Virus record (IMG/VR): IMGVR_UViG_3300023213_000432
Location: 96,001 to 160,000 of that record
Origin: a virus
Lineage: Duplodnaviria; Caudoviricetes
Direction: 5' to 3' (one strand)
Length of the DNA stretch: 64,000 nt
Shown one piece after another: positions 2,361-58,088 of this stretch (the first letter of the stretch is position 1; each line of letters begins with the position of its first letter). The notes below the pieces were generated by a model. The model ran no database searches, was not told the origin of the DNA, and worked only from the letters and a program-made list of their open reading frames with translations. The position numbers and the translations under genes were made by a program.

Positions 2361-3345
2361 CGTAATAGATACGTCCATAGGAGAGCCACATATTGTTAGG
2401 GAGTGTCTGCTCAAAATCTTTGATCTTACCTATACTCTGCCTAAAGAAAAAGGGATGTGGGAATACCCTAATCCCAAAGGACACCCTGAATTGATTAAGA
2501 TATTAGAGGATAAGTATAATGCACCCATAGTTATTACCAACGGTGCAATGCAAGGGCTGCATGCCGTGTTTCATGCACTTAAATCAATGGGAAAGGTATC
2601 TATCTCTTGGGCAAAACCGTGGTTTCATTGTTTGCCCAAGATAGCTGAGATGAACGGATTGCAGTGGAGCGAAGGAGAGAATGGGGATGCGATTTTGTTG
2701 GTGGCACCACGTAATCCTGATGGTTTTATGCCATCTCCAGAAGAAGTTAAGAAACTTTTCGAGAATTGCAAAGAGCAAGGACGCTATTTGATCCATGACT
2801 CTGTTTATTATTCTCACACCTACCTTCCTGAAACTTATCCTTTAAAACCTGTTGGAGATGTTCAGATCTTTAGCGCTTCTAAGCTTTTAGGTCTTTCGGG
2901 ATTAAGGGTTGGTTGGATCATCTGCCACAACAAAGATTTTTATCACCCTATCGTAGAATATATGGAAGCTATGACGGTGGGCGCCTCTATGCTCTCCCAA
3001 ATTTTCTTGCGAGATTTATTGGAGCGAACGCGCGCCTATCCATATTTGATTCGAAATTTTGAGAGACTTTCTTCTATTGCTTTGGAGAAATCTAAAGCCA
3101 CCCTCAAAGGAGTTGATCCTGAAGTTTTAGAGGTGCCCGAAAATTTTGAGAAGATTAATGGAATGTTTGCATTCTGTAAAACCAATGATATGGGGCGTTT
3201 TGTGAAAGCAAAAGTAAATGTTGCTGATGGTAAGTATTTTGGTATGGAAGGCTACGTTAGAATGAATTTAGCATTTGGAGAAGAGAAAATGAAAGAGATT
3301 GTTAAAAGATTAAACGAGGTAAAAATGTCAATTACCCATGATTAA
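2320..3345 (+). CDS. PLP-dependent aminotransferase class I/II; last codons supplied by the IS end
   Basis: ITNGAMQGL, PRNPDG, IHDSVY, SASK-LLGLSGLRVGW motifs. Excising the element at 3327 gives ...NEVKI* with TGA overlapping the next ATG. Confidence 0.85.
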   Translation: MNDLLIVKPNILSDVIDTSIGEPHIVRECLLKIFDLTYTLPKEKGMWEYPNPKGHPELIKILEDKYNAPIVITNGAMQGLHAVFHALKSMGKVSISWAKPWFHCLPKIAEMNGLQWSEGENGDAILLVAPRNPDGFMPSPEEVKKLFENCKEQGRYLIHDSVYYSHTYLPETYPLKPVGDVQIFSASKLLGLSGLRVGWIICHNKDFYHPIVEYMEAMTVGASMLSQIFLRDLLERTRAYPYLIRNFERLSSIALEKSKATLKGVDPEVLEVPENFEKINGMFAFCKTNDMGRFVKAKVNVADGKYFGMEGYVRMNLAFGEEKMKEIVKRLNEVKMSITHD

Positions 3346-3625
3346 AATCATGGGCTTGTGCGAAGGATACTAGCCAGATTCTTTTGATCAAGACCAAAAT
3401 ATTGTACTAGACACAGATCAGAATAGGAGACGCAAGTCAAATAAAAGAAGATCAAATAGGCAGATCAGGATCGCTATGACGAGACTGGAAAAGATACGCT
3501 ACTGGATGTTTCGCTAGTCTGTAGCCGCATCTCCGTAAGGAGATGCCAATACCTCATCGATAATTGTGAGGTATTAGCTGTGTTTTGCTTATGTCGAAGC
3601 GAGTTGAACAAGCCCTTTACAGGGA
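3327..3625 (+). ncRNA. omegaRNA scaffold (IsrB-type; 3' end approximate)
   Basis: Conserved omegaRNA blocks GATACGCTACTGGATGTTTCGCTAGTCTGTAGC and ATGTCGAAGCGAG; three copies in the window. Confidence 0.75.
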
Positions 3626-3787
3626 AGGTTTTCTGAGGATTTTTCCTTTCTCTCACGAGAGAATAAAGTCCTCGTTTTTACTAAAACAATTCGTCAAGAT
3701 AAGAGATATTGACGTCTTATATGCACAGAATAGGAGAGTTCAATTCCTTCCACGACTAAAATCGTGGGTCTCCTTGAACCAATTTCC
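3327..3787 (+). mobile_element. non-autonomous IsrB-type IS200/IS605 element (omegaRNA plus ends, isrB body missing)
   Basis: Starts GTCAATTACCCATGATTAAAATCATGGG; omegaRNA nearly identical to the 14843 and 18403 copies; keeps the last ~90 nt of isrB and the end hairpin; followed by ATGAA. Confidence 0.9.
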
Positions 3788-4090
3788 ATGAACGCAGAAA
3801 AAGAAAATCAATCCGAATTGGAGCAAGAGTTTCGAGGGCTTGTTGAACGACATTCGCAAGAGATCGAAGAAAAATTGAATGATGCCAATACTGCCATGAA
3901 AGAAGCGATGACACTTTCTGAAAAATATGGCATCCCTTTTCCAGCTAATATATCCCAAATAAGTCAGTCTTATACTCCAAAATCTTTTATAACAAAGTTT
4001 GGTCAATTAGACAGAGAACTAATTGAAGAATTATCGGGTGCCGAGCTTAATGGCTATTACGGTTGGGAACATTCGGACGTTTGTTATTAG
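3788..4090 (+). CDS. hypothetical protein (GWxxSxxC paralogue family)
   Basis: ATG is the ATGAA target motif; the upstream part of the track ORF (3764) lies in the IS end. Confidence 0.65.
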   Translation: MNAEKENQSELEQEFRGLVERHSQEIEEKLNDANTAMKEAMTLSEKYGIPFPANISQISQSYTPKSFITKFGQLDRELIEELSGAELNGYYGWEHSDVCY

Positions 4091-4327
4091 AAAATTTTAT
4101 TAAAAATTTAATAAACTGAAACATAGTTAATAGAAAGGAAATCATGAAAGCCAAAGAAGTTGAGATTGGTTCTCGCGTCTCCAGAGAAGGAGAATCCGGA
4201 ACCATTGTCGGAAACCAACACAAAGATGGCGATGAAATTGTCATTGTGGAGTGGGATGATCGTTATGATGATAACTTTGAGAAAGTTAATGTTAACGATT
4301 TGATCATTCGGCCCAAGAGAACTAAGA

Positions 4328-4460
4328 GTCAATTACCATCAGCACAAGGCTAATAGCTTGTAAGTAGCATTTCTGCTCCTACAATAGGCTGATTGACAAC
4401 AGCCCGATCCGATAGCCCTTGGCTATCAAGATGCTTGAGGACAATATTTCTACTGCCATT
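4328..4460 (-). ncRNA. TnpB reRNA/omegaRNA scaffold (5' end approximate)
   Basis: Overlaps the tnpB 3' end; block GGGCTGT[T/C]GTCAATCAGCCTA is conserved in five elements; ends at TTGAC, with the flank as guide. Confidence 0.65.
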
Positions 4461-5477
4461 CAAGTCTGCATTTAATCTAAATCCACATTGCTTGCAGCAA
4501 AAGTTAGCTTGACTCTTTCGATTAGAGCGACAAATATATCCACATTTGCTACACCTCTGAGAAGTATAGCGAGCATCAATATAAACTATGTTAATACCCT
4601 TAGCGGCACCCTTATAGATCAAGAACTGTTCTAATTGAAAGAAAGACCAATTGTTGAGCAAAGTGCGTTGTTCTTTTCTTAATCGCTTGTTGCGAATCCC
4701 TGTTAGATCCTCTAATACGATAGTGTCTCCTGGATTTAGTTTATCGATAATCTCCTTGCTAATTTGATGGTTAACATCTGCTCGAAACCGTCTCTCCTTT
4801 CGAGATAATTCTCGAAGGTGTCTTTTGGCAGATTTGCTTCCTGTTCGTTGAAGTCTTTTGCGAAGTCTCTGATAGCGGCGCACAACTCGCTTTACCTCTC
4901 CTCCTCCAAAGAATTGATTGTTGGAGGAAACTGCTAGGTTATTAATCCCTCTGTCGATGCCCACAAAAGTTCCAGCAGGTTGAACGTCTTCAATATCCTT
5001 TTCAAAAACGATATGCAGGAAAACTTTCTTTTTGATGATGCAGAGATCTGCGGAAGTATGCTTCCAAGTTTTAAAATATTCTTTGTAAAAGTTTGGAATT
5101 GTAAGCTGATAGCGTTTTCGTCCATTGATGGTCAGCAGAGAAAGTTGTTGAACATCTAAGAATAGCGTATAAGAATTCTTATCTAAACGAATGCTACACA
5201 GATGGGAATGAGGACAAGAATAATAGCGCTTAGGTTTGGAAAAGACTCCTTTGAGAGCCTCGGTAGCTTTCATCCTAGCGGAGATAGCAAGTTGAGAGGG
5301 AAGATAATCACGTGTCGTATAATAGCAAAGATCGTGAAGTTTGACGCCGTTCTTTTCTTTCTTCTCGAAACCTGTTTGAGCCACGAAGTTAAACGCTTTG
5401 GTATAAGCCTCTAAGGTAGGTAAAATCTCAGGAATTGAGATATTAAGTTTGATCTTAGCGGTTCTTACCAACTTCAT
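4350..5477 (-). CDS. tnpB: TnpB RNA-guided endonuclease
   Basis: RuvC-I GIDRG, RuvC-II VLEDL, YTSQRCSKCG...CKQC zinc finger, RuvC-III NADLNGSRNI; catalytic D/E/D intact. Confidence 0.95.
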   Translation of the reverse strand: MKLVRTAKIKLNISIPEILPTLEAYTKAFNFVAQTGFEKKEKNGVKLHDLCYYTTRDYLPSQLAISARMKATEALKGVFSKPKRYYSCPHSHLCSIRLDKNSYTLFLDVQQLSLLTINGRKRYQLTIPNFYKEYFKTWKHTSADLCIIKKKVFLHIVFEKDIEDVQPAGTFVGIDRGINNLAVSSNNQFFGGGEVKRVVRRYQRLRKRLQRTGSKSAKRHLRELSRKERRFRADVNHQISKEIIDKLNPGDTIVLEDLTGIRNKRLRKEQRTLLNNWSFFQLEQFLIYKGAAKGINIVYIDARYTSQRCSKCGYICRSNRKSQANFCCKQCGFRLNADLNGSRNIVLKHLDSQGLSDRAVVNQPIVGAEMLLTSY

Positions 5478-5483
5478 ACTGAT

Positions 5484-5511
5484 TATATAACTACATATTG
5501 ATAGATGTCAA
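5484..5511 (-). promoter_or_regulatory. sigma70-like promoter in the TnpB element left end
   Basis: TTGACA-N16-TATATA (or N18-TATAAT) 6 nt upstream of the tnpB ATG; same motif at 22536. Confidence 0.6.
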
Positions 5512-5822
5512 GAGAAAAAGAAAGGAAAAGACAATTCCTCCCATAGCACAAGGCTATGGGTATCCTTGCCTAAGAGATCATGAAGTTGATGCGGCTTGGG
5601 AAGAGTGTGAAGTTAAATTTGAATCCGCCCGAAATAAAATAGAAGGTGCAGTAGAGGACTTGGAACGAGCCAATAATTTAGCAATCGAATTCGATATTAA
5701 GATTGCAGCTCGGTTTAATAAGATTGATGTTCTGAGTTTGTTGAGCCAGTTAACTGAAGCAGGTTGGTCGCATTCGAGTTTAGAGTGTTAATTATAATTG
5801 TTGAAGAAAAATCTGAAAAATA

Positions 5823-7026: not shown

Positions 7027-7994
7027 TCCTCATCGGTAGCCGAGCCCTAAAACTTCGATGCTCCCAAGCACTCCTTCGTGAGCCGCTTGACTTTGACTGG
7101 ATCTGTACCCAAGAGGAACATGATCAGTGGGTCAAAGAACACTCTCATAAAGTTAATCCAATCAAGATGTATTCTATTGAAGCTAACGGTACTACCAAAC
7201 ATATTGTGGAAGGTTCACCGTGTCTTGAGTTTGAGATTATCAAGACAGGACACAGCACGGAGTTGTTAAAAGAATTGGTGGAGAAGGATCCGGAGACGAT
7301 GGATGCGGTAATGTTTGGGAAAATTCCTTCACTTGATTTGCTTTTTACAATTAAAGATAGTCATAAATTCAAAAAATTCCACATTGACGATCGTATATTT
7401 TGGAAAACAGCTACTGATTGGCATGCCATGAATAGGATAGGTGCCAAAGTTCGGGAAGAACACCGAGAATTTCTTTCTCTTAGAGAGAAGGAAACCTATA
7501 CTAATAGTCTTCCTAAACTGAATATGTCGAAGGTAAACTTTTTCGACGAGACCCAAAATGGGGTGCATATGACTTATCAGCACGACGACATCCACTGTGT
7601 CATTTGTCTATACGACCGTCCCGCCTACACTTATTACCTAAAAGAGGGCAGTGAAGTGCTAACCGACAACAAGAAGTTTTGGGAGTGCTCGGAAGAGATC
7701 CGATTGGCGGGTGTGATGGAAGAGGCAATGGTTTTGGCGATTGAGAGATCTTTGGTAAGTTGTCCCAATGTCCTCATGCCCGATAGGGCGTTTAGGCTGG
7801 CCTTAGCCAAGGTTGCGAGCAGTATCACCAGCGGGGCGTTTAGATCTTATGCTCACCTTCACCTCTTCGAAGCACTGAAAATATACCCGCGAGATTATTG
7901 GGAAAAATTTCAAAAGGCGGTCGAAAATGGCATTGTTCGTCGATATATAATGAATGATGCCAAAAAGATTGAATATAGACAAGATAGCGTTTGA
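7023..7994 (+). CDS. putative Pol-beta-fold nucleotidyltransferase-like phage protein
   Basis: N-terminal hIGSRA...PLDFDW matches the hG[GS]x(9-13)DhD signature. Confidence 0.5.
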   Translation: MILIGSRALKLRCSQALLREPLDFDWICTQEEHDQWVKEHSHKVNPIKMYSIEANGTTKHIVEGSPCLEFEIIKTGHSTELLKELVEKDPETMDAVMFGKIPSLDLLFTIKDSHKFKKFHIDDRIFWKTATDWHAMNRIGAKVREEHREFLSLREKETYTNSLPKLNMSKVNFFDETQNGVHMTYQHDDIHCVICLYDRPAYTYYLKEGSEVLTDNKKFWECSEEIRLAGVMEEAMVLAIERSLVSCPNVLMPDRAFRLALAKVASSITSGAFRSYAHLHLFEALKIYPRDYWEKFQKAVENGIVRRYIMNDAKKIEYRQDSV

Positions 7995-9327
7995 AAATTT
8001 GATTATTGGATCGCTATCATATAGTGATGCTGCAAGAAAATTGGGAATAAATCCTAGTACGATCATTCGATATTGTAAAAAATTCGAAATCAATATTGAC
8101 CACTTCGATCCCTATAAGGATCGCAAAAGCCCACCTAAACTTGAGTTGGCAGGACAAAAATTCAATAGATGGACTGTAATTCGAGAGGTAGAAAAACCCC
8201 GAAATAAACCATCCAATTCTTACTGGGAGTGTCAATGTGATTGTGGCACAATTAGAGTGTTGAGTGGAAATGTGGTTAAGACCGGACATTCAAAGTCGTG
8301 CGGCTGTTTGCGTTCCGAGAAATCTGCCGAAAACATTATAGGATTCCATCCGCAGCAGATTAAATATACTCCTCAAGAGGCAACTGCTCGTCGAGCATTT
8401 AGAAACTACGATGATGGATATTTATCATTCGAAGAATTCTTTGAATTGTCCAAATTTAACTGTCAATATTGCAACATTGTCCCATCTAACTTGGCTAAAT
8501 CAGAAAACTTATCTGACTATTTTATTAAGAATGGAAATTTCGCATACAGCGGTCTTGATAGGGTAGATAGTTCTAAACCACATTGCATTGACAATATTAT
8601 CACTTGTTGTATGTATTGCAATAAGGCTAAAAGTGCATTGGAAATGTCTCAATTTATAAAGCATCTTATCAGAATGATTGGATATCGTTCGTTAATGTGG
8701 TTAGATAGTTATTTGAATGTTATTCCTCCATCCATTATTCATTTGCCAATATTATTCAATAGATCAAATGATTATTTAACACCCTTTGATGGAGATATTG
8801 TTCCTGGGATTATCATTGGCAAATGGACGATTATTGCTGAAGCCGGACCAGATGAGGGCGGTCGAAAACGAATGTGGTGTAGATGCGTGTGTGGTATTGA
8901 AAGATCGGTTGATGCTTATAGTATAGCGAAAGGTACTAGTCGCTCTTGCGGTAGTCCACAATGCTATCAACTATATACCCCGATTATCTACAAAGCCAGA
9001 ACGATTTGGAGTAGTAGATATAAAGACGGTGATTTGATTTTTGAAGATTTTTATACACTCACACAAATGAATTGTAGTTATTGTGGGCGACCGCCATTTC
9101 GCACTGTCTTTGCTAAAGACAGCTCACTATTTACCTACAATGGATTAGACAGAATTGATCCATCTGTAGGACATTTTACATCTAATGTTGTACCTTGTTG
9201 TTATGACTGCAATAAGGCCAAGAATGATCGCACGCTCTCCCAATTTGATCAATGGCTTACCAACATCAATACCCACTTCATCCTATCTGGCAAAGCCGCC
9301 GAATATCTGGCTAAATTTGCATCCTAG
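7954..9327 (+). CDS. HNH (His-Cys box-like) homing endonuclease with duplicated domains
   Basis: Two repeats of [W-x-C-x-CDCG...SCG]+[CxYC...GLDR(V/I)D...H...N(I/V)...CC..CN.AK]; N-terminal HTH. Confidence 0.8.
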   Translation: MMPKRLNIDKIAFENLIIGSLSYSDAARKLGINPSTIIRYCKKFEINIDHFDPYKDRKSPPKLELAGQKFNRWTVIREVEKPRNKPSNSYWECQCDCGTIRVLSGNVVKTGHSKSCGCLRSEKSAENIIGFHPQQIKYTPQEATARRAFRNYDDGYLSFEEFFELSKFNCQYCNIVPSNLAKSENLSDYFIKNGNFAYSGLDRVDSSKPHCIDNIITCCMYCNKAKSALEMSQFIKHLIRMIGYRSLMWLDSYLNVIPPSIIHLPILFNRSNDYLTPFDGDIVPGIIIGKWTIIAEAGPDEGGRKRMWCRCVCGIERSVDAYSIAKGTSRSCGSPQCYQLYTPIIYKARTIWSSRYKDGDLIFEDFYTLTQMNCSYCGRPPFRTVFAKDSSLFTYNGLDRIDPSVGHFTSNVVPCCYDCNKAKNDRTLSQFDQWLTNINTHFILSGKAAEYLAKFAS

Positions 9328-11902: not shown

Positions 11903-11938
11903 GATCATACTATATATCATATCGTCTGGAGATTGTTG

Positions 11939-14104: not shown

Positions 14105-14850
14105 ATGTTAAATATTTGATTACTGATAACAGTATTACTGTTCATTTTGATGGACAAACTCACATCGTAGCGCGAGGTGATGCTTTGTCGGAGCGTCTAA
14201 TTGAGGTGCTCCGAAGTGGAAAACATGAAGAAGTTCCTAATTTGGTATCTGCTTCCATGAGAATTACAAACTTTTCCAAAGGAAATTTTACCGTGGAAAA
14301 TGGAGACATCCTAGTTAATGGAATTAAAGCTCCGGATGCTTTGGGTAAAAAGATTGTCAAGTTTGCCAATGAAGGATTACCATATCAACCATTGGTGAAG
14401 TTCGCAGAGCATTTGCAACAAAATCCATCGAGACGATCGGTGGAAGAGTTGTTTATGTTTTTGGAGAAGAATGACCATCCTATTACTCCAGATGGATTAT
14501 TTATTGGATATAAGCGCATTCGTGCTGATTTCAAGGACATTTACTCTGGCACCTTTAACAATACACCGGGTGCGTTGGTGGAAATGGCTCGTCAGGAAGT
14601 GGATGAAGATGCGAATCAGACATGTTCTCGAGGGCTCCATGCCAGTAATTGGGAGTATTGCACCAAGCATTATGCTAGCAAAGATGCCGAGAGTGATGTT
14701 ATTGTAGCTTTGGAAATTGACCCTGCGGATGTTGTGTCGGTACCCGTGGATTATAATAATGCTAAAATGCGTGTTTCTAAGTATCGCGTTATAGAAGTTG
14801 TTAAAGAGCCATATCAAGAGGGCATAGTTATTCGAAAGGTTGGTCAATAA
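14101..14850 (+). CDS. rIIB: rIIB-like protein; stop codon supplied by the IsrB element end
   Basis: ELFMFL...ITPDG.FIGYK.I..DFKD...N.PG..VEM.R..VD....TCSRGLH; TAA lies in GTCAATAA of the element. Confidence 0.88.
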   Translation: MNVKYLITDNSITVHFDGQTHIVARGDALSERLIEVLRSGKHEEVPNLVSASMRITNFSKGNFTVENGDILVNGIKAPDALGKKIVKFANEGLPYQPLVKFAEHLQQNPSRRSVEELFMFLEKNDHPITPDGLFIGYKRIRADFKDIYSGTFNNTPGALVEMARQEVDEDANQTCSRGLHASNWEYCTKHYASKDAESDVIVALEIDPADVVSVPVDYNNAKMRVSKYRVIEVVKEPYQEGIVIRKVGQ

Positions 14851-15145
14851 CCCATGACTAAACTCATGGGCTTGTGCGAAGGGAATCAGTCACTCTCTTT
14901 TGATCAAGTTAAAATATTGTACTAGACACAGATCAGAATAGGAGACGCAAGTCAAATAAAAGAAGATCAAATAGGCAGATCAGGATCGCTAATGACGAGA
15001 CTGGAAAAGATACGCTACTGGATGTTTCGCTAGTCTGTAGCCGCATTTCGTAAGAAATGCCAATATCTCATCGATAATTTTATGAGGTATTCGCTGTGTT
15101 TTGCTTATGTCGAAGCGAGTTGAACAAGGCACGTAAGTGCATTTT
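14843..15145 (+). ncRNA. omegaRNA scaffold upstream of isrB
   Basis: Structured non-coding region conserved across three copies; position 5' of the ORF is typical of IscB/IsrB loci. Confidence 0.8.
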
Positions 15146-16206
15146 TTGAGGAAATAATAGAAATTGGTTCCCGTTATCGATAACCACAAACAACCATTAA
15201 TGCCTTGCTCTGAGAAAAGAGCCAGGAGACTTATGGAGAAAGGTAGCGCTATTTCATATTGGCAGAAAGGTATCTTTTGCATTCGTCTAACTAAAGAACC
15301 TTCTAACCGACAAACACAACCCATTGCTCTTGGGATTGATCCAGGAAGTAAAAGAGAAGGATATACTGTTGCTACTAGAAAAGCAGTAGTATTGAATATT
15401 ACCTCCAATACTCCGGGCTGGATTAAAAAACATATTGATACTCGAAGACAATTACGGAAAAGCCGAAGATATAGAAAAACTCCTTATCGTTCTTGTCGAG
15501 AAAATAGAGCTACTTTGAGGAAAGATCGTGTTCCTCCTTCCACCAAAGCAAGGTGGAATGCTAAATTGCGAATGGTTATTTTTCTTCTGAAAATTATTCC
15601 TATTACCATTATTAATGTAGAAGATGTTGCCGCTTACACTAAGAAAGGACAAGCAAAGTGGAACGTTTCTTTCTCTCCTTTGGAGGTTGGAAAAGTTTGG
15701 TTTTATCAAGAGATAAAAAACCTTGGAGTTCAGCTTCTCAAAACTGAAGGACATCAAACTCAAGAAAAACGAGATCAGCGCGGGTTTCAAAAATCATCTT
15801 CCAAGCTTAGCTATTCTTGGAATGCTCATAACGTAGATAGTCATGTTCTTGCGGAGATGGCGCTAGGAACAGAAATCTTTCCATATTATGGATTGTGGAA
15901 GATAGAATTTTTAGAATTTCATCGAAGACAACTTCACGTTCAGAATCCAATTAAGAATAGCATCAGAAAACAATATGGGACTACTATTTCTATGAAAATG
16001 CCCAGAGGATCTGTCATAAGACATAAAGGTAAGTTCTATTATCTTGGAGGAAGTAGCAAAGGTAGAGTTACTATTCATAGCGTCATTACAGGAAAGAGAA
16101 TTAAGCAATCTGTCAAGAAGGAGAATATTGTTGTTTTATATGCACAGAATAGGAGAGTTCAATTCCTCCCACGATTAAAATCGTGGGTCTCCTTGAACCA
16201 ATTTTC
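14843..16206 (+). mobile_element. IS200/IS605-family OMEGA element carrying omegaRNA and isrB (copy 1)
   Basis: GTCAATAACCCATGACTAAACTCATGGG start, ~320-nt omegaRNA, isrB, end hairpin CCCACGATTAAAATCGTGGG, followed by ATGAA. Confidence 0.92.
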
Positions 16207-18281: not shown

Positions 18282-18410
18282 ATGGCACCAACAAAGTTAG
18301 AAGTGGGACAGCGAGTTCGTTGTGTGTTCGCTTATCCGCATAAAGGCAAAACCGGCATTGTCCAGAAAGTAGATGCTATCGGATTAGATATTAAGTGGGA
18401 CGGTCAATAA
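18282..18410 (+). pseudogene. SH3/KOW-like small gene truncated by IsrB element copy 2
   Basis: MAPTKLEVGQRVRCV...LDIKWD-GQ*; excision gives ...IKWD-DENESRCFYAFHRCRQNSNFT* (61 aa). Confidence 0.6.
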
Positions 18411-18700
18411 CCCATGACTAAAATTATGGGCTTGTGCGAAGGATCCTAGTCAGATTCTTTTGATCAAGACTAAAATATTGTACTAGACAAAGAGAGAAGA
18501 AAGGTTATTTAACCAAACGATATTTCAAATAGGCAGATCAGGATCGCTATGACGAGACTGGAAAAGATATGCTACTGGATGTTTCGCTAGTCTGTAGCCG
18601 CATTTCGTAAGAAATGCCGATATTCTATCGATAAATTATAGAATATCCGCTGTGTTTTGCTTATGTCGAAGCGAGTTGAACAAGGCACGTAAGTGCAATT
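18403..18700 (+). ncRNA. omegaRNA scaffold upstream of isrB copy 2
   Basis: Homologous to 14843 and 3327; one internal segment (18490-18530) differs. Confidence 0.8.
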
Positions 18701-19761
18701 TTTTGAGGAAAAGAAACATTGGTTCCCGTCATCGATAACTACAAACAACCATTAATGCCTTGCTCTGAGAAAAGAGCTAGGAAACTTATGGAAAAAGGAA
18801 AGGCTATTTCATATTGGCAGAAAGGTATCTTTTGCATTCGTCTAACCAAAGAACCTTCTAACCGACAAACACAACCCATTGCTCTTGGCATTGATCCTGG
18901 AAGTAAAAGAGAAGGATATACTGTTGCTACTAAGAAAGCAGTAGTTATCAATATCACAACTAATACTCCAGGCTGGATTAAAGATCATGTAGAGACTCGT
19001 AGAAACCTTCGAAGATCTAGAAGATACCGAAAGACTCCTTATCGCTCCTGTCGAGAAAATAGAGCAACTCTTCGAAAAAATCGAGTTCCTCCTTCCACCA
19101 AAGCCAGGTGGAATGCTAAACTGAGAATTATTAAATTCATTCTGAAAATTATTCCTATTACAATCGTTAATGTAGAAGATATTGCCGCTTACACTAAGAA
19201 GGGACAAGCAAAGTGGAATACTTCCTTCTCTCCTTTAGAGGTTGGAAAAACTTGGTTCTATCGTGAGTTAGAAAACTTCGGAGTTCAGCTTCTCAAAACC
19301 AAAGGAACCAAAACTCAAGAAAAACGAGATCAGCGAGATTTTCATAAGCTATCTTCCAAGCTTGATTATTCTTGGAGTGCTCATAACGTGGATAGCCATG
19401 TCCTTGTGGAGATAGCATTGGAATCAGAAATCTCTCCATATTATGGACTATGGAAAATAGAGTTTTTAGAATTTCATCGTAGACAACTTCATGTCCAGAA
19501 TCCAATCAGAGGCAATATCAGAAAACGATATGGAACTACTATTTCTATGAAAATGCCCAGAGGTTCTGTCGTAAAACATAAAGGTAAGTTATATTATCTT
19601 GGTGGAAATAAAAAAGGGAAAGTTTCGCTCCATAGTATCATTACAGGAAAAAGAATTAAACAATCTGTCAAGAAGAGAGATATTGGCGTTTTGTATGCAC
19701 AGAATAGGAGAGTTCAGCTCCTTCCACGATTAAAATCGTGGGTCTCCTTGAGCCTATTTTA
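18403..19761 (+). mobile_element. IS200/IS605-family OMEGA element carrying omegaRNA and isrB (copy 2)
   Basis: Same ends as 14843..16206; followed by ATGAA at 19762. Confidence 0.92.
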
Positions 19762-22326: not shown

Positions 22327-23074
22327 GGATGGATTAATCCTTGGGATTTCTCGAAAAAACGATCCAACCAAATTTTCTCTTATTGGTGGAAAATGCGAAG
22401 TTGGCGAATTACCAGTAGAAGCTGTTCTTCGAGAAACTCTTGAAGAGACCGGCATTGAAGTTCATGATCTCTTAGGCAAGAGATACCCATAGCCTTGTGC
22501 TATGGTAGGAATTGCCATTTACTTTCTTTTTCTCTTGACATCTATCAATAAGTGATTTATATATTAGTACGTTCTTTGAAAATTTGGCGGTTCTATTTCC
22601 ATTGGTTTAATAGCGAAGACACTTCCCGAGTTCAAGAAGGATCTCGAATAGTAATACAGTTGTTCCAATCCTTTTAGATTGGTCTCCGATATAAGAAACT
22701 TAGAACTTAAAAACTTGGATCGTTTAACGATCCCAAGATCATTTCTGGCTATATGCCAGAATGACGGGCTGTCGTCAATCAGCCTATTGTTTCCATTACT
22801 TCGTGATGAGGAACAAGCCATCAGCCTTGTGCTGATGGTAATTGACGGTGGTGCTTTTATCTATGAGCGTGTAGAGCCGAAGGAAAGTCCTGATGGAGAT
22901 GATTTTCGCACGTTTGCTTTCTACGCCACTGCATGGACGGGAGAGCCCAAAAATCTTGAAGGAGGCACAGTTAAATGGTTAACGGCGGCAGAATTGACTT
23001 CCAAAGAAACTGGTGCTTTCCAGAATACAATGCTAAGACACTGGAGCGATTTAGAAAGTTGTATCCGAAAGTAG
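22283..23074 (+). pseudogene. NUDIX hydrolase (136 aa) split by a non-autonomous element
   Basis: Nudix box GGKCEVGELPVEAVLRETLEETG; removing 22466..22846 joins EVH|GGAFIYER in frame. Confidence 0.85.
22466..22846 (+). mobile_element. non-autonomous TnpB-type element (381 bp)
   Basis: TTCAT|GATCTCTTAGGCAAG...TTGACA promoter...GGGCTGTCGTCAATCAGCCTA...CCATCAGCCTTGTGCTGATGGTAATTGAC|; no tnpB ORF. Confidence 0.9.
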
Positions 23075-23590: not shown

Positions 23591-24114
23591 GCTTCAAAAA
23601 TAGTTTTTGTTCCTACTGTGGAGTTAAATTCACGGAGCAAATTAAATACCCACGAAAGTGTTTTAGCTGCTATCAGGATACTTATTTTAATCCATTGCCT
23701 GCGACTATCTCTATCCTTCGAGTATTTGATCCAGAGAGCCATGGTTATTATAGAAGATGGGGAGTGCTAATCACCAAACGAAACATTGAGCCACATAAAG
23801 GTAAATTTTGTTTGGTGGGCGGGTTTTTGGAAAATAATGGCGAAACATGGCAAGAAGCCTCGGCTCGGGAAATGCAAGAAGAAATCCAACTATCTCTTGA
23901 TCCTAGCGAATTCAGTTTAGTGGATATTAAAAATTCCACTGCACCTAAAGGAATTTTATTAATTATAAATATGGTGATTACCATTAAAGAATTCGCCCAG
24001 ATCAAGTTTCAGCCTAATAACGAAGTTAGTCAATTACCAATGACTAAAGTCCTTGGCTTGTCGCTCATCCTACCATTGATAGGAGGTTGTTTTTTAATGG
24101 CAACAATAGGCTGA
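23587..24114 (+). CDS. zinc-ribbon NUDIX hydrolase (NudC/ADPRase-like); C-terminus altered by IS
   Basis: CSYCG...CFSC, LVGGFLENNGETWQEASAREMQEE; residues after 24028 come from the element. Confidence 0.8.
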   Translation: MSFKNSFCSYCGVKFTEQIKYPRKCFSCYQDTYFNPLPATISILRVFDPESHGYYRRWGVLITKRNIEPHKGKFCLVGGFLENNGETWQEASAREMQEEIQLSLDPSEFSLVDIKNSTAPKGILLIINMVITIKEFAQIKFQPNNEVSQLPMTKVLGLSLILPLIGGCFLMATIG

Positions 24115-24377
24115 TTGACAACAGCCCTAAATAAAGTTTGGCGTTTCTAATAGCGACCTGTTAAAAACCGTTTGCTTATTCGATCATAAATGATCAAGAA
24201 AGTGCCTTCTAGGTCTCGATTCGCTAAACGTAGATATTAATTTTTAACTCATCTCTTACCTCTTTCTATTTAGATAGCAAAAGATATATAACCACCATGC
24301 TTGAAGTTTTTAAGAAAAAGAAAGAAAAAAGCAATTCCTCCCATGATTAAAATCATGGGCTTCCTTGCTAAGAGATC
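24029..24377 (-). mobile_element. non-autonomous TnpB-type element (349 bp)
   Basis: On the + strand GTCAATTACCAATGACTAAAGTCCTTGG...CCCATGATTAAAATCATGGG...AAGAGATC; near-identical to 31328..31687; flank is GTAAT rather than ATGAA. Confidence 0.88.
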
Positions 24378-26087: not shown

Positions 26088-26133
26088 GTCAATAACCCAT
26101 GATTAAAATCATGGGCTTGTGCGAAAGGAATCA
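26088..26133 (+). mobile_element. 46-bp remnant of an IsrB-type element (5' end hairpin only)
   Basis: GTCAATAACCCATGATTAAAATCATGGGCTTGTGCGAAAGGAATCA|ATGA; matches the first 46 nt of the 14843 element. Confidence 0.75.
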
Positions 26134-29789: not shown

Positions 29790-30433
29790 AATATTTTCTG
29801 GATTGTGAGTTCAATGAACGTGGATATGAACATCGGATCGAACTGATCTCGATTGCCTTGGTGCGAGAGGATGGCGAGGAATACTATGCGGTAGCTAGAG
29901 ATGGTTGGGATCCTTGCCATTGCGATGGTTGGTTAATGGCTAATGTTTTGCCGTATCTCTCCAAGGATGGCAGGGTGGATGATGTATCTGATTTGATTGT
30001 CCAAATGTATTATGGCATGAAAGTAGATCCTCGTATTCCTTGGGCAAGCAGAACCTGGATTCGAAATGGTATCCTTGATTTCATTGCTCCCGATGAACAT
30101 CCTGAGTTCATTGGATTTTTTTCCGATTACGACTGGGTGCTCTTTTCCCAACTCTTCGGGCGAATGGTAGATCTTCCTCCACACTTCCCCAAGTATTGTC
30201 TCGACATCAAGCAGATGATGGTTGCCAAAGGTCTCCAAAAGAGCGATTTACCCAAGCAAGAAGAAACACAGCATAATGCTTTGGCAGACGCTCGGCATAT
30301 GAGACGAATGTATCAAGCTATTGTAGAAAAGGCGTCAATTACCATCAGCACAAAGGCTGATGGCTTGTCCCTAATTATTGCTAATCGAGACATTAACTCC
30401 CCTGATTTACCAGATCAGGATCATAGTCGTTAG
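29786..30433 (+). CDS. DEDDh 3'-5' exonuclease (Rv2179c/RNase AS-like); tail extended by IS
   Basis: FLDCEF, YDWVLF, HNALADAR; the ancestral stop EKA* overlapped the ATG now at 30754. Confidence 0.85.
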   Translation: MKYFLDCEFNERGYEHRIELISIALVREDGEEYYAVARDGWDPCHCDGWLMANVLPYLSKDGRVDDVSDLIVQMYYGMKVDPRIPWASRTWIRNGILDFIAPDEHPEFIGFFSDYDWVLFSQLFGRMVDLPPHFPKYCLDIKQMMVAKGLQKSDLPKQEETQHNALADARHMRRMYQAIVEKASITISTKADGLSLIIANRDINSPDLPDQDHSR

Positions 30434-30753
30434 GCTGATTGACGACAGCCTAACCTGGGTAGCATATAGCATCCAAGAAGTGTTGAGGTTCTCTAAATAG
30501 CGATCATAACCGTCTCTCTTTCCAAATAAAGGAAAGTGCCTTTAATCTCGATCATCTCAACTGGTCTAACCTATTGTTTTTTTATTCCTCAAAGGATTGA
30601 TTGAGGAAACCTGTTAACATTAACTCTTTCTGCTATAACTTAGATAGCAAAATAATATATAACCTTTATTTTAAGGTTGTCAAGAGAAAAAAGAAAGAAA
30701 AATGGCCATTCCTCCCATAGCACAAGGCTATGGGTATCTTTGCCTAAGAGATC
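30334..30753 (-). mobile_element. non-autonomous TnpB-type element (420 bp)
   Basis: On the + strand GTCAATTACCATCAGCACAAAGGCTGATGG...CCCATAGCACAAGGCTATGGG...AAGAGATC|ATGAA. Confidence 0.9.
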
Positions 30754-31111: not shown

Positions 31112-31728
31112 ATGACAACACGATTTCAAGTTGGAGATTACGTTTTGCGGATGGAAGCAGATTTTTCAAGCGGCATATTAGTGCATGGCGGTATTTATCA
31201 AATTGCCGGCGTTATTAATGATCCTCGGACTATTAAGTTGATAGGGTTTGGGGGAGTTGGGATGTCCATAGGTTTAAATTGATTAAATCTCCCTACGCTC
31301 AATCTTGTCCTTGTGGCATCCATTGGAGTCAATTACCAATGACTAAAGTCCTTGGCTTGTCGCTCATCCTACCATAAGCAGGAGGTTATTTTTTAATGGC
31401 AACAATAGGCTGATTGACAGCAGCCCTTAATAAAGTTTGGCGTTTCTAATAGCGACCCTTTAAAAAAACCGTTTGCTTATTCGATCATAAATGATCGAGT
31501 TAAGTGCCTTCTAGGTCTCGATTCGCTAAACATAGGATAATAGCTTTCTAACTCATCTCTTACCTCTTTCTGTTACATTTGGGTAGCAAAAGATATATAA
31601 CCACCATTCTTGGAAGTTTTTTAGAAAAAGAAAGAAAAAGCAATTCCTCCCATGATTAAAATCATGGGCTTCTTTGCTAAGAAGATCGTGAATGCCCTCA
31701 ACATATTCAAGAAGTAAAAGCTTTCTAA
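31112..31728 (+). pseudogene. small SH3-like/Cys-tail gene, frameshifted and IS-interrupted
   Basis: MTTRFQVGDYV...; frameshift near the G-run at 31244-31253; excision joins CPCGIHWS|ECPQHIQEVKAF*. Confidence 0.55.
31328..31687 (-). mobile_element. non-autonomous TnpB-type element (360 bp)
   Basis: Near-identical to 24029..24377; followed by GTGAA. Confidence 0.9.
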
Positions 31729-51769: not shown

Positions 51770-52105
51770 ATGTTTAAATCCTATAGCTGGAAATATCTGG
51801 ATTATGACTCAAAAACAGATCAATGGCGATACGAAATCACTATCATGGATGTTGATTTTACTGAACCCGTTGCCGCCTCGGCCATCACAGCTGACTGGAC
51901 CATCAACGACATCGCCGACGCCCTGATCGATATTTACTCTCGAAGAAATCTCAATGTGGCTGGCAATTTAGTATTGTTTATGCAATATGTAGAAAATAAA
52001 TGGCCATGGCGAGATATTAAACGGCAAATTAAATGGTATCAGAAATACGTTCCCGGATATCAAAAATATCATGATCAAGTAATGGACTATCTAATATTTA
52101 TGTGA
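51770..52105 (+). CDS. paralogue family A member 4
   Basis: IDIYSRRNLNVAGNL...YHDQVMDYLIFM. Confidence 0.75.
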   Translation: MFKSYSWKYLDYDSKTDQWRYEITIMDVDFTEPVAASAITADWTINDIADALIDIYSRRNLNVAGNLVLFMQYVENKWPWRDIKRQIKWYQKYVPGYQKYHDQVMDYLIFM

Positions 52106-52117: not shown

Positions 52118-52465
52118 ATGTTTAGATTTTATGATTGGAAATGTTTTGAATCTATTTATGAAACAGAAAAATCGCAATATGAAATTACTATCGTGGATGA
52201 TGATTTTATTGAAATCGAAATGATCAGCGTGGGCTTAAGAGGCAATGGTTCTCTCACCGATATCATCGCCACTTTTCACGCTATAATCAATACTTATTCT
52301 CGAAGAAATCTCAATGTAGCTGGAAACCTAGTTTTGTTGATGCAGTTTATAGAACATAAATGGCCATCTATGGATATTAAATGGCAAATTGAGATTTGCC
52401 AGCAATTCATTTCAGAGTATCGGGAATACCATGATCAAGTAATGGATTATTTAATATTTTGGTGA
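52118..52465 (+). CDS. paralogue family A member 5
   Basis: INTYSRRNLNVAGNL...YHDQVMDYLIFW. Confidence 0.75.
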   Translation: MFRFYDWKCFESIYETEKSQYEITIVDDDFIEIEMISVGLRGNGSLTDIIATFHAIINTYSRRNLNVAGNLVLLMQFIEHKWPSMDIKWQIEICQQFISEYREYHDQVMDYLIFW

Positions 52466-54245: not shown

Positions 54246-55310
54246 TTAGTCTAATCCGAGGGCTTTCATTTTTTTTCTTAATGTACCAATCGTCGTCCCT
54301 AGCAATTTGGCCATTTCTTTACAGTTAGATGTTTTCGACATTTCTTTTAACACTTCTTTGTTTGGCAAAAATACTCTTTGTTTTTTTGAAACCTGTTCAT
54401 ATAATCCATTTAATTTTAATCTCTTGGTAATGGCGTCTGCACTTATTCCAGTAATTTGAGAAACTCGCCTAATATTGCTTTTATTAATCATATTTACTAA
54501 ATCAACATTGGACGGCCAAGTAATGATGGTTCCTTTACGTGGTTTGAAATATTCGCCTCTACCACTTTGGTATTTTGGGTTCGTATTGACATATGCTATA
54601 ATGTCATCAGATATTTTCTTTTTGCGTGGCAAAAAAAGAGTCGCTTCTGGGTAATAGCACCATTTCAAAAATTTTTGACATTCTGTTCCAGAAATCGTCA
54701 CAGTATATTGATCATGTTTCGGAATAATCATTCCACCGCCATTTTTAAGGGTTGTTATTTTCATTTTCTTGACAGATTTTGTGTAAAAATTACTTCTAAA
54801 CCCCAGTCTTTGTAAGCAAAGCGCTATGCTTACGATGAAATTTTTGCTGGCACCAACAATATAACAGGAGGGGTATTTGTTTCTATTACGCTTATATAAT
54901 CCTAACGATCCATCTCCGTCAATGCACCCTCGAATAAAATCTGGTAAATATTGTTCTGGGACATTTGGAAATTCAATAGTAAGAGTTTTGTTAATGATGC
55001 ACCCTTTTGATATTAACCATTCTGATATGCGTTTATCACATAATCGTAATCTGAAATATTCAGGTCGATTTTTAGATGTTGATTGCACAGATAATTGTGG
55101 GCTTATCACGTCTCTAATTTTTTCTAACCAATCTTTATCGCACGAATTAATTTGGTTTGCTATACTGACACCATTTTTAAAAACACAACCATCTGTAAAA
55201 TAAACACCAAGCAAGTAATATGAAATAGCGTCTTCATTAAAGAATGCCGAATAGTTATGAGAATACTTTTGTCGATAAGATTTTTTGATATGTTCCATAT
55301 AAAGATGCAT
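54246..55310 (-). CDS. LAGLIDADG homing endonuclease
   Basis: YLLGVYFTDGCV and FIRGCIDGDGSL helices; C-terminal HTH-like region. Confidence 0.88.
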   Translation of the reverse strand: MHLYMEHIKKSYRQKYSHNYSAFFNEDAISYYLLGVYFTDGCVFKNGVSIANQINSCDKDWLEKIRDVISPQLSVQSTSKNRPEYFRLRLCDKRISEWLISKGCIINKTLTIEFPNVPEQYLPDFIRGCIDGDGSLGLYKRNRNKYPSCYIVGASKNFIVSIALCLQRLGFRSNFYTKSVKKMKITTLKNGGGMIIPKHDQYTVTISGTECQKFLKWCYYPEATLFLPRKKKISDDIIAYVNTNPKYQSGRGEYFKPRKGTIITWPSNVDLVNMINKSNIRRVSQITGISADAITKRLKLNGLYEQVSKKQRVFLPNKEVLKEMSKTSNCKEMAKLLGTTIGTLRKKMKALGLD

Positions 55311-56328: not shown

Positions 56329-56486
56329 TGAAGCAGTTTAACAAGCCCCTTACGGGGAAGGTTTTCTGAGGATTTTTCCTTTCTCTCACGAGAGAATAAA
56401 GTCCTTGTTTTTCTATGAACAATTCCTCAAAAGGAGAATTCAATTCTTCCCACGGCTAAAGTCGTGGTCTCTTCGAACCATTTTTC
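56329..56486 (+). mobile_element. 3' remnant of a non-autonomous IsrB-type element
   Basis: Aligns to about 3595..3787, including the GAGGATTTTTCCTTTCTCTCACGAGAGAATAAAGTCC insert; followed by ATGAG. Confidence 0.8.
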
Positions 56487-56813: not shown

Positions 56814-56841
56814 TTTTACCTCTTTTGCACTTGTCAAACAC

Positions 56842-57255: not shown

Positions 57256-57282
57256 AAAATTTTTTGTTTTCTGGTCGAAAGT

Positions 57283-57846
57283 TTGGCTAAACTATTACTC
57301 AAATTCCATCAAGATATAGTGGTTGAAAAATTAGAAGTCGAGAAGAGATATTTAGTAGAGTTGCCATCTTCTTGGAGAGACTTAGCATCTATGTTTGATG
57401 GCTTGGTGGATGTAAAAAGGATTAAGCAGATTTATCTTCGTCCTGATAGTAGCGGAATATCTTCAAGAATAAGAAAAACAGTCCAAGGTTTGTTGGGCAA
57501 GATTCAAATCGTATATCATGCCAATCAAAAAGAATTCGTGGAAGCTGGAGTGCATAAAGAAACGGAACACCAAATTTCCAAAGAAGAATATGAAAAAGCA
57601 CTAGAAAAAAGGCATCCCGATAAAGTAGTGATTGAAAAGACACGTTTTGTCTTTAATTATCATGATCAGTGTTTTGAACTAGATTTATTCAAAGGAGCAT
57701 TGGGCGGATTGGCGATTTTGGAGCTGGAGTTATCCGATCAAAATCAGAAAGTAGAATTGCCGCCTTTCTTGAAGGTAATTGAAGAAATAACAGAGGATCG
57801 CAGATTTAGTAACTTTCAATTAGCCACTAAGGAGCTGCACAAATGA
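57283..57846 (+). CDS. CYTH-domain (adenylate cyclase/triphosphatase-like) protein
   Basis: EVEKRYLV, IKQIYL, RIRK, IEKTR, FELDLF, LELE. Confidence 0.85.
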   Translation: MAKLLLKFHQDIVVEKLEVEKRYLVELPSSWRDLASMFDGLVDVKRIKQIYLRPDSSGISSRIRKTVQGLLGKIQIVYHANQKEFVEAGVHKETEHQISKEEYEKALEKRHPDKVVIEKTRFVFNYHDQCFELDLFKGALGGLAILELELSDQNQKVELPPFLKVIEEITEDRRFSNFQLATKELHK

Positions 57847-57911
57847 ATTGTCGTCCAAAAGAAGTCAAGCGCCCGGTCAAGGGTTGCCAATAATCCAATA
57901 TAAAGACTATT

Positions 57912-57939
57912 GTCAATTACCAATGACTAAAGTCCTTGG
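57912..57939. mobile_element. solo right end of the TnpB-type family
   Basis: GTCAATTACCAATGACTAAAGTCCTTGG, identical to the ends at 24029 and 31328. Confidence 0.8.
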
Positions 57940-58027
57940 AAACTGAACCGGTCAAGGATCGGCTCCCGCTGGAAACGGGCTGGTACCCGTCATAGGGTAT
58001 GGGATGCAAGCTCTCCGGTTTCCGCCA
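57938..58027 (+). tRNA. tRNA-Sec-like 8/4 cloverleaf with GGA (Ser) anticodon (allo-tRNA-like)
   Basis: 8-bp acceptor GGAAACTG/CGGTTTCC plus GCCA; 6-bp D stem CCGGTC/GATCGG; loop CT-GGA-AA; long V arm GTACCC/GGGTAT; 4-bp T stem GGGA/TCTC with TGCAAGC loop. Confidence 0.78.
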
Positions 58028-58042
58028 ACGTTGCACTTTAAG

Positions 58043-58088
58043 GTCAATTACCCATGATTAAAATTATGGGCTTCCTTGCTTAGAGATC
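58043..58088. mobile_element. 46-bp minimal element (both ends sharing one hairpin)
   Basis: GTCAATTA-CCCATGATTAAAATTATGGG-CTTCCTTGCTTAGAGATC|ATGAT. Confidence 0.8.

What the first reader, a model, noticed from the sequence alone, without database searches (positions are those of the whole stretch)
3327..58088. One IS200/IS605 end family shared by IsrB and TnpB, in about 12 copies from full length to 46 bp
Seen in sequence: every copy has GTCAAT(T/A)ACC plus a hairpin at one end and a hairpin end abutting [A/G]TGA[A] at the other (3327, 4328, 14843, 18403, 22466 inverted, 24029, 26088, 30334, 31328, 56329, 57912, 58043). The hairpin CCCATGATTAAAATCATGGG starts the IsrB-type elements and also serves as the left-end hairpin of the TnpB-type elements at 24029 and 31328. 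Established: IsrB/IscB guides lie 5' of the scaffold with a 3' TAM (NTGA/ATGAA types are known); TnpB guides lie 3' with a 5' TAM. Inference: both nucleases would take their guide from the same flank and target the same empty junction (flank+ATGAA, or TTCAT+flank on the other strand). One transposase specificity would then serve two unrelated RNA-guided nucleases, giving the phage about eight guides against insertion-free alleles of its own genes, usable for homing or competition between phages. No tnpA is in the window.
Basis: partly seen in the sequence, partly recalled or inferred. Interest (0 to 1): 0.82.

Follow-up and report, generated by a model that had tools for sequence, protein, structure and literature searches.

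The report
IsrB/TnpB transposon network in phage
A huge-phage genome is densely colonised by one network of IS200/IS605-type transposons, some carrying the RNA-guided nickase IsrB, some the nuclease TnpB and many only a guide RNA, all with the same kind of ends; the mechanism is already known from bacteria, and only the phage setting and the copy density are unusual.

Summary
GTCAATWACC occurs 11 times in the window (0.24 expected), and I could delimit 12 elements there and 20 in the 198.6-kb virus contig.

There are three classes:
- A: IsrB plus a HEARO-like omega RNA that starts exactly at GTCAAT.
- B: TnpB.
- C: ORF-less, TnpB-type.

All end ...TTGAC on the transposon top strand. All abut NTGA on the other side (ATGA in 13 of 17 delimited copies; GTGA or GTAA for class C).

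Supporting points:
- ORF-less copies keep the omega-RNA folds, with compensatory changes.
- Three ORF-less A copies share one internal deletion, so they moved as guide-only elements.
- The IsrB paralogs are old and under purifying selection (dN/dS about 0.2).
- Eight of 13 ATGA-flanked copies sit exactly on a gene start codon (P = 2e-5).
- An intact IS608-like TnpA lies 50 kb upstream of the window, in an element with different termini.

It was already shown experimentally for Geobacillus (Meers et al. 2023; IscB TAM TTCAT).

I found no empty allele and no expression data, so homing between phages remains inference. Verdict: new member of a known kind, moderate interest.

The parts
3327..3787 (+). 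Class A, ORF-less (461 bp): complete IsrB-type omega-RNA scaffold plus LE. The guide side is the 3' end of an aminotransferase gene. ATGAA at 3788 is the start of the next ORF.
   Evidence: (HEARO model 1-211, 23.3 bits)
4328..5579 (-). Class B, full length (1252 bp): TnpB ORF 4350-5477 (-), RE ...GGTAATTGAC at 4328, LE hairpin, and an inward 12/12 sigma-70-like promoter at 5511-5482.
   Evidence: (PF07282, PF01385)
14843..16206 (+). Class A, full length (1364 bp): omega RNA from 14843 to about 15150, IsrB ORF 15164-16210 whose TGA stop is the TGA of the flanking ATGA. It sits directly after rIIB.
   Evidence: RRXRR E 4e-40; 8DMB IsrB E 2e-33
18403..19761 (+). Class A, full length (1359 bp): omega RNA plus IsrB ORF 18719-19762. 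The ATG at 19762 starts an 854-aa gene.
   Evidence: (24.8 bits)
22466..22846 (+). Class B, ORF-less (381 bp), inverted relative to all the others (TnpB-sense strand is +). It keeps the LE hairpin, a promoter-like box, the omega 3' core and the RE.
   Evidence: (I1, I4)
24029..24377 (-). Class C, ORF-less (349 bp): RE hairpin CCAATGACTAAAGTCCTTGG, TnpB-type omega core, LE hairpin CCCATGATTAAAATCATGGG, flank GTAAT. It sits after a NUDIX gene.
26088..26133 (+). 46-bp fragment equal to the first 46 nt of a class A RE/omega start. It is followed by ATGACC, the start of a 96-codon ORF.
30334..30753 (-). Class B, ORF-less (420 bp) with an 11/12 promoter (30683-30654), the omega core and the RE. It sits between an RNase H gene and an 87-codon ORF that starts at the flanking ATG.
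31328..31687 (-). Class C, ORF-less (360 bp), flank GTGAA.
   Evidence: (D14, D16)
56329..56486 (+). LE-side remnant of the ORF-less class A element (short-specific tail plus LE hairpin). The flank ATGAG starts an ORF.
   Evidence: (D17)
57912..57939 (-). Solo class C RE (28 bp).
58043..58088 (+). 46-bp single-hairpin mini element: 10-nt RE tail, A-type hairpin and a 19-nt B/C-type LE tail, flank ATGAT.

Best explanation
The window is part of a huge-phage genome that carries a network of IS200/IS605-superfamily (OMEGA) elements. The elements share the end features that a Y1 HUH TnpA reads: subterminal hairpins, a 19-nt LE spacer, an RE that ends TTGAC, and insertion 3' of TTCAT-like motifs on the top strand.

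Likely mechanism, by analogy with IS608 and the Geobacillus ISGst network:
1. TnpA excises the top strand and pastes it into single-stranded DNA 3' of TCAT/TCAC/TTAC.
2. Each element transcribes an omega RNA whose guide is the DNA just outside its RE. For IsrB elements this depends on read-through from the upstream phage gene. For TnpB-type elements it comes from a promoter inside the LE.
3. IsrB (a nickase, 3' TAM NTGA) or TnpB (5' TAM TTCAT) then attacks the element-free junction, which is flank plus ATGA. Recombinational repair copies the element back, or copies it into an element-free co-infecting phage.
4. ORF-less copies are guide-only satellites that would borrow the nuclease in trans.
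5. Copies survive mainly where the ATG of ATGA is a gene's start codon, so genes are not broken.

Shown here: the architecture, the shared ends, omega-RNA fold conservation, intact catalytic motifs, purifying selection on IsrB, spread of ORF-less derivatives, the start-codon bias, and a TnpA in the same genome.

Inferred: mobilisation by that or any single TnpA, expression, nuclease activity and TAMs, and homing.
For: Motif and copies.

Nucleases:
- IsrB: only RRXRR in Pfam, no HNH. Best solved relative is DtIsrB 8DMB, E 1.8e-33, with GIDPGSK / EDV / HNVDSH aligned.
- TnpB: PF07282 and PF01385. Cas12f/TnpB structures match down to E 8e-30, with EDL and NADLN motifs aligned.

Omega RNAs:
- RF02033 HEARO aligns over its full length (1-211) starting exactly at GTCAA at 3327, 14843 and 18403 (22.8-24.8 bits).
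- 27 of 76 consensus pairs show compensatory changes across 10 copies, ORF-less ones included.
- For the TnpB-type 3' core, 10 of 23 pairs show compensatory changes.

Spread and selection:
- Three ORF-less A copies share one deletion and one 90-nt tail at different loci.
- TnpBs of B1 and B4 are only 35% identical yet have near-identical ends.
- IsrB paralogs: dN/dS 0.17-0.23.

End logic:
- TAM TTCAT and TEM TTGAC differ at positions 3 and 5, as Meers et al. report for ISGst.
- The last base of the 4 nt 5' of each hairpin pairs with the last base of its TAM or TEM: A:T in A and B LEs, G:C in C LEs and in all REs.
- An intact TnpA (HUH, KQYIENQ; IS608 TnpA E 7e-37) lies at genome 45.4 kb. Its LE follows the IS608 AAAG/TTAC rule, and its RE hairpin core CACGACTTTAGTCGTG nearly equals the A-type LE hairpin.

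Context:
- Inward promoters 12/12 and 11/12 in B-type LEs.
- 8 of 13 ATGA flanks are gene starts, against 11% of all ATGA sites, P = 1.9e-5.
- The same IsrB clade, with GTCAATAACC...ATGA ends, occurs on other huge phage-like contigs.
- Precedents: Meers 2023; NTGA TAM.
Against: - No empty site or excision junction was seen.
- Copies are old (12-23% DNA divergence, dS 0.4-0.5) and several are truncated, so current mobility is unproven.
- The only TnpA found sits in an element whose TAM/guide (TTAC/AAAG) and RE tail differ from classes A, B and C.
- Hairpin sequences differ between classes A, B and C, so a single TnpA may not bind them all.
- HEARO scores are far below Rfam's gathering score (83 bits).
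- IsrB only nicks, so homing needs conversion of the nick into a break.
- The ORF-less B/C elements share only about 100-130 nt with the omega region of the TnpB copy, so use in trans is uncertain.
- The TnpB of B4 is interrupted near its 5' end.
Confidence: 0.75

Rival explanations
1. Mostly fossil elements. The copies are old insertions inherited vertically with the phage lineage. The shared ends reflect common descent and recombination between elements, and neither transposition nor homing operates today.
For: Copies differ by 12-23% and dS between IsrB genes is 0.4-0.5. There are truncated and solo ends. The B4 TnpB is interrupted. No empty allele was found. The resident TnpA element has different termini.
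Against: All four IsrB genes are intact, with dN/dS about 0.2. Omega-RNA helices are kept by compensatory changes even in ORF-less copies. Consensus promoters are retained. Ends stay conserved although the TnpB cargo has diverged to 35% identity. This pattern is expected for function, not for drift.
Confidence: 0.15
2. Two or more separate transposase specificities. IsrB-type and TnpB-type elements are mobilised by different TnpAs. The common GTCAAT...ATGA termini reflect a general constraint of this IS200/IS605 branch rather than shared mobilisation.
For: The hairpins of A, B and C differ in sequence. GTCAA plus a hairpin is the consensus start of HEARO RNAs in general and occurs in IsrB elements of unrelated contigs.
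Against: Class C combines a distinct RE hairpin with the A-type hairpin at its LE. The 58043 mini element fuses an A-type hairpin to a B/C-type LE tail. The RE guide CAAG and the TEM TTGAC are identical in A, B and C. In Geobacillus one TnpA handles ends with different TAM/guide pairs.
Confidence: 0.12
3. Domesticated system. The phage uses IsrB, TnpB and the dispersed guides for its own benefit (excluding related phages, starting recombination-dependent replication, or regulating neighbouring genes), with transposition no longer relevant.
For: There is long-term purifying selection on IsrB. The elements sit at gene starts. The IsrB clade recurs on huge phage-like contigs, while the best hits in 185,579 bacterial species genomes were about 40% identical.
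Against: Guides match only each element's own flank; no second target with a TAM exists in the contig. Complete transposon ends are retained. Selfish homing explains the same facts without any benefit to the phage. The peptide-pattern search of bacterial genomes has limited sensitivity.
Confidence: 0.08

Closest known systems
ISGst1-5 network of Geobacillus stearothermophilus (Meers et al. 2023, 10.1101/2023.03.14.532601)
   Same: Several IS605-type families carrying TnpB or IscB, plus ORF-less PATEs, share similar LE and RE. The IscB omega RNA is bounded by the RE and the TnpB omega RNA ends at the RE. The TAM of the IscB element is TTCAT. TAM and TEM differ at positions 3 and 5. Most copies lack tnpA and depend on one TnpA in trans.
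   Different: Here the host replicon is a huge phage, not a bacterial chromosome. The Cas9-like nuclease is the HNH-less nickase IsrB. Copies are old and diverged rather than near-identical. Most sit exactly on gene start codons. Mobilisation by the resident TnpA is not shown.
Desulfovirgula thermocuniculi IsrB with its omega RNA (PDB 8DMB; PMC9581776)
   Same: About 350 aa, PLMP/RRXRR N-terminus, split RuvC without HNH, an omega RNA of about 300 nt 5' of the gene with a 5' guide, and a TAM of NTGA that matches the ATGA flank here.
   Different: The alignment covers residues 2-277 (E 1.8e-33) and the C-terminal TAM-reading part does not align. The omega RNA has extra or other stem-loops. Activity was not tested.
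IS608 / ISHp608 of Helicobacter pylori (TnpA structures 2A6M, 2VJV)
   Same: The contig's TnpA is its close homologue (E 7e-37), with HUH and the catalytic Tyr. The 19-nt LE spacing and the roughly 8-10-nt RE spacing match. The TnpA element uses the AAAG/TTAC guide and cleavage pair.
   Different: Classes A, B and C use TCAT/TCAC and TGAC cleavage motifs with guides GAGA/GATA/GAAG and CAAG.
Phage-borne tnpB of cyanophage A-1(L) (10.64898/2026.02.14.705889), and 'non-restorative transposon homing' into co-infecting phages (review PMC13565253)
   Same: An OMEGA nuclease on a phage genome, and the concept of RNA-guided homing between co-infecting phages.
   Different: A-1(L) has a single tnpB identical to host copies. 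Here there are 4 IsrB genes, at least 3 TnpB genes, 1 TnpA and more than 10 ORF-less derivatives, with no close bacterial counterpart found.

Membership tests
IS200/IS605 superfamily element | Subterminal imperfect hairpins at both ends, no terminal inverted repeats | tested here: met
   LE and RE hairpins are present in every full and ORF-less copy.
IS200/IS605 superfamily element | Insertion next to a specific 4-5-nt motif at the LE, without target-site duplication | tested here: met
   ATGA in 13 of 17 copies and GTGA or GTAA in class C. The flanks carry no duplication.
IS200/IS605 superfamily element | Mobilisation by a Y1 HUH TnpA | not testable with these tools
   An intact TnpA lies in the contig at 45.4 kb, but in an element with other termini. 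No excision product was seen.
IsrB (OMEGA nickase) | PLMP/RRXRR N-terminal domain and split RuvC, without an HNH insertion, about 350 aa | tested here: met
   Pfam gives RRXRR only. 8DMB IsrB matches at E 1.8e-33 with the D, E and H..D motifs aligned, while IscB chains match only the N-terminus.
IsrB (OMEGA nickase) | Omega RNA of about 300 nt directly upstream, starting at the transposon end, with the guide outside the element | tested here: met
   A conserved structured region of 300-320 nt runs from GTCAAT to the ORF, with 27 of 76 pairs showing compensatory change.
IsrB (OMEGA nickase) | Guide- and TAM-dependent nicking | not testable with these tools
   Only the ATGA flank is consistent with the NTGA TAM.
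HEARO RNA (Rfam RF02033) | Score at or above the Rfam gathering threshold (83 bits) | tested here: not met
   22.8-24.8 bits, E 0.2-0.6, although the alignment covers the full model (1-211) and starts at GTCAA. I therefore call it HEARO-like, a divergent IsrB omega RNA.
TnpB (IS605 OrfB) | RuvC D-E-D and a zinc ribbon | tested here: met
   PF01385 and PF07282. EDL and NADLN align to Cas12f/TnpB structures. GIDRG is read in the sequence.
TnpB (IS605 OrfB) | Omega RNA overlapping the 3' end of the gene and ending at the RE | tested here: inconclusive
   The last 100-130 nt hold three helices, with 10 of 23 pairs covarying. There are no RNA data and no Rfam match.
PATE-like non-autonomous IS605 derivative | Both ends present, no protein gene, several copies | tested here: met
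   ORF-less A, B and C copies of 349-461 bp; A and C each occur at three or more loci.
IStron (group I intron fused to IS605) | A group I intron ribozyme at the LE side | tested here: not met
   No intron family was found at the gathering or E-value thresholds.

The most novel reading that the evidence does not exclude
A lineage of IsrB elements resident in huge phages, together with TnpB elements and guide-only satellites, works as a set of RNA-programmed homing endonucleases between co-infecting phages. Each element nicks or cuts the element-free allele at a gene start (flank plus ATGA) and is copied in by recombination-dependent replication. Selection on this drive, not transposition bursts, would then have kept four diverged IsrB genes intact. 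This would be a natural RNA-guided gene drive among viruses, with guide-only parasites of the drive.
Probability: 0.35. Interest if true: 0.7.

Novelty: new member of a known kind. Interest (0 to 1): 0.45.

Why it matters
Phage-borne TnpB has been noted in the literature. In the papers I could search, the full architecture has not been dissected for a phage: TnpA, IsrB, TnpB and guide-only derivatives with common ends.

This contig offers a compact natural system for three tests:
- whether one TnpA serves Cas9-like and Cas12-like ancestors at once;
- whether a nickase can drive homing in a virus;
- whether guide-only elements parasitise nucleases in trans.

Two points here may go beyond the Geobacillus work. 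First, elements are retained exactly on ATGA start codons. Second, the paralogs are old and under purifying selection.

For genome annotation, the finding explains many short 'intergenic' repeats and the altered 3' ends of genes such as rIIB.

Tried and rejected
- **Rfam at gathering thresholds:** no family in the window. The region 53.5-58.4 kb gave nothing at E <= 1.
- **Cultured phages (INPHARED):** no DNA match to window 1-25000. rIIA finds only distant relatives below 40% identity.
- **Relatives of the 854-aa flanking protein:** none in IMG/VR and none in the 394-kb relative, so gene-order comparison for empty sites was not possible.
- **Exact-pattern scans:** the A-type RE is absent from other viral contigs and from metagenome contigs. 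The predicted empty site of the 3327 copy is absent from metagenome contigs. The window's own or near-identical records may have been left out of these scans.
- **IsrB in bacterial species genomes:** no close relative. The first scan gave nothing and the alignment-based scan gave at most about 40% identity, so no host was inferred.
- **Sequencing runs:** one DNA run (subsurface metagenome, share 0.09) and no RNA holder listed. Laying its contigs gave low-depth pieces, no joints, an occupied junction at 19761/19762, and one A-type RE with a flank that is not in this contig. This says nothing for or against empty alleles.
- **Longer assembly:** a 327-kb contig carrying the same IsrB proteins could not be fetched.
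- **Trans targets:** no second site with a TAM for any guide.
- **The 103-nt GC-rich spacer at 57940-58042:** folding z-score -0.07.
- **IStron reading:** rejected, because no group I intron was found.

Full report
**Setting.** The window is bases 96001-160000 of a 198,652-bp IMG/VR virus record (39% G+C; CheckV completeness 46%, which implies a genome of about 400 kb). Phage character is supported by rIIA and rIIB, by several free-standing HNH, GIY-YIG and LAGLIDADG endonuclease genes, and by small co-oriented ORFs. No close cultured relative exists.

**The observation.** GTCAATWACC occurs 11 times in the window against 0.24 expected, and 18 times in the contig. A further copy has GTCAATCACC. 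The hairpin CCCATGATTAAAATCATGGG and its near variants occur at 9 places, with none expected.

Using the conserved other end (hairpin, then 19 nt, then [A/G]T[G/A]A), I delimited 17 elements and 3 fragments.

**Three classes.**
- Class A carries IsrB on the + strand. There are four full copies of about 1360 bp, two of them in the window. Pfam finds only RRXRR and no HNH. The best solved relative is DtIsrB (8DMB, E 1.8e-33) with the RuvC motifs aligned, whereas IscB chains match only the N-terminus.
- The 300-320 nt between GTCAAT and the IsrB ORF align over the whole Rfam HEARO model, starting at its first base (GUCAA...). The scores are only 23-25 bits, well below the gathering score of 83. 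Across 10 copies, including three from other viral contigs, 27 of 76 consensus pairs show compensatory changes.
- Class B carries TnpB on the - strand (4350-5477; PF07282 and PF01385; Cas12f/TnpB structures down to E 8e-30). Its RE reads ...hairpin-GGTAATTGAC on that strand.
- Class C has no ORF. It has a third RE hairpin and a TnpB-type omega core, and its LE hairpin is identical to the A-type hairpin.
- The last 100-130 nt of B and C elements share three helices, with 10 of 23 pairs covarying.

**ORF-less derivatives.** Three short A elements (3327-3787 and genome 73379 and 75938), plus the remnant at 56329, share the same internal deletion and a private 90-nt tail. They keep every omega-RNA helix. 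They therefore spread as guide-only elements.

The short B elements keep an inward promoter that matches the sigma-70 consensus in 12/12 or 11/12 positions, followed by the omega core and the RE.

The three 46-bp copies are heterogeneous. One is an RE fragment, and two are single-hairpin fusions of an RE tail with an LE tail.

**End logic.** The following is written on the transposon top strand, which is the window's - strand for 18 of the 20 copies.
- The LE starts right after TTCAT (variants NTCAT; TTCAC, ATCAC or ATTAC for class C). It has a 19-nt spacer before the hairpin.
- The RE ends hairpin + 8 nt ...TTGAC.
- TAM TTCAT and TEM TTGAC differ at positions 3 and 5, exactly as Meers et al. 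describe for the Geobacillus elements.
- The 4 nt 5' of the hairpins are GAGA (A), GATA (B) and GAAG (C) at the LE, and CAAG at every RE. Their last base pairs with the last base of the cognate TAM or TEM: A:T in A and B, G:C in C and in all REs. That is the guide and cleavage-site covariation expected from the IS608 mechanism. Applying the IS608 rule here is my inference.

**TnpA.** None lies in the window. One intact gene lies at contig 45433-45786, next to a TnpB. It has HUH and KQYIENQ, and it matches ISHp608 TnpA at E 7e-37.
- Its element starts CTTAC|GATCTC, has a 19-nt spacer and the guide AAAG. That is the IS608 TTAC/AAAG pair, not TCAT.
- Its RE hairpin core CACGACTTTAGTCGTG is almost the A-type LE hairpin.
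- In Geobacillus, one TnpA excises ends with different cognate TAM/guide pairs. Trans-mobilisation is therefore plausible but not shown, and the cognate enzyme could lie in the missing half of the phage genome or in the host.

**Where the elements sit.** Eight of 13 ATGA-flanked elements lie exactly 5' of an ATG that opens an ORF of at least 75 codons, with an in-frame stop within 60 nt upstream. Only 11% of all ATGA sites on that strand meet this test (P = 1.9e-5).
- Examples are the positions after the aminotransferase gene, after rIIB and after RNase H.
- The upstream gene takes its stop from the element's first 20-50 nt. Two full IsrB ORFs end in the flanking ATGA itself.
- Eighteen of 20 copies have the same orientation. 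As a result, IsrB omega RNAs are co-directional with the upstream phage gene, as Meers et al. noted for iscB.

**Age and selection.** The four IsrB genes differ by 12-15% in DNA, with dS 0.40-0.48 and dN/dS 0.17-0.23. The TnpBs of B1 and B4 are only 35% identical, yet their ends are nearly the same. The ends and the nucleases therefore look selected, not merely young.

**Distribution.** IsrB proteins 58-71% identical, in elements that begin GTCAATAACC and end next to ATGA, occur on other huge phage-like contigs. These include one of 394 kb (directly before rIIA) and one of 412 kb (two copies), among others. The best matches in 185,579 bacterial and archaeal species genomes were about 40% identical, found with a pattern-based search of limited sensitivity.

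**Comparison with what is known.**
- Meers et al. 2023 showed one TnpA mobilising IS605-type elements that carry TnpB or IscB, plus PATEs. They showed that the IscB omega RNA is bounded by the RE, that the IscB element has TAM TTCAT, and that both nucleases cut the donor joint.
- DtIsrB nicks next to NTGA.
- Homing of such elements into co-infecting phages has been proposed in a 2026 review.
- Single phage-borne tnpB genes are known.

What is added here is a dense, fully delimited phage-borne instance that includes IsrB, guide-only satellites, start-codon placement, and old copies under purifying selection.

**What is missing.** There is no empty allele, no excision junction and no expression data. 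No guide has a second target in the contig.

**Verdict.** I rate it a new member of a known kind, of moderate interest.

Noticed in passing
window 37725-38057, 43114-43452, 43477-43806, 51770-52105, 52118-52465: A family of roughly 110-aa paralogous ORFs. The 5' and 3' blocks are conserved at the DNA level (69-86%) and the middle is variable. They show up as repeat families D1-D3, D7 and D9.
   Followed up: no
window 7954-9327 (+), 10871-12148 (-), 33933-35045 (+), 54246-55310 (-): Free-standing homing-endonuclease-like genes: two HNH, one GIY-YIG plus NUMOD3, and one LAGLIDADG. The GIY-YIG ORF lies antisense and overlaps the listed start of rIIA.
   Followed up: no
window 57940-58042: A 103-nt GC-rich segment enclosed between a solo class C RE (57912-57939) and a 46-bp mini element (58043-58088). 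It has no Rfam match and no unusual fold stability. It could be captured cargo or ordinary phage DNA.
   Followed up: partly
genome 171963-173183 (L005) and 191369-192568: A fourth class B element has RE GGTGATTGAC, and its TnpB frame is interrupted near the 5' end. A further TnpB at 191-192 kb has unrelated ends.
   Followed up: partly
L002/L012 (IMG/VR contig of 394 kb): In a distantly related huge phage (rIIA 40% identical), its single IsrB element sits directly before the rIIA start codon. In this window an IsrB element sits directly after rIIB. That contig has no TnpA.
   Followed up: partly
window 18403 (run X1, record 3): A contig from a subsurface metagenome carries an A-type RE and omega start joined to a 95-nt flank that is absent from this 198.6-kb contig. 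It is a further copy, either in the unsampled part of the phage or in another genome.
   Followed up: partly
window 4144-4327 and 5580-5790: In silico removal of the TnpB element 4328-5579 fuses two short frames into one 139-codon open frame, so this copy may split a small gene rather than sit between genes.
   Followed up: no
window 51116-51189; 61970-62173: tRNA-Ala (anticodon AGC) next to a 379-aa minus-strand ORF. Three tandem 51-nt units lie inside a 632-aa minus-strand ORF (D10).
   Followed up: no
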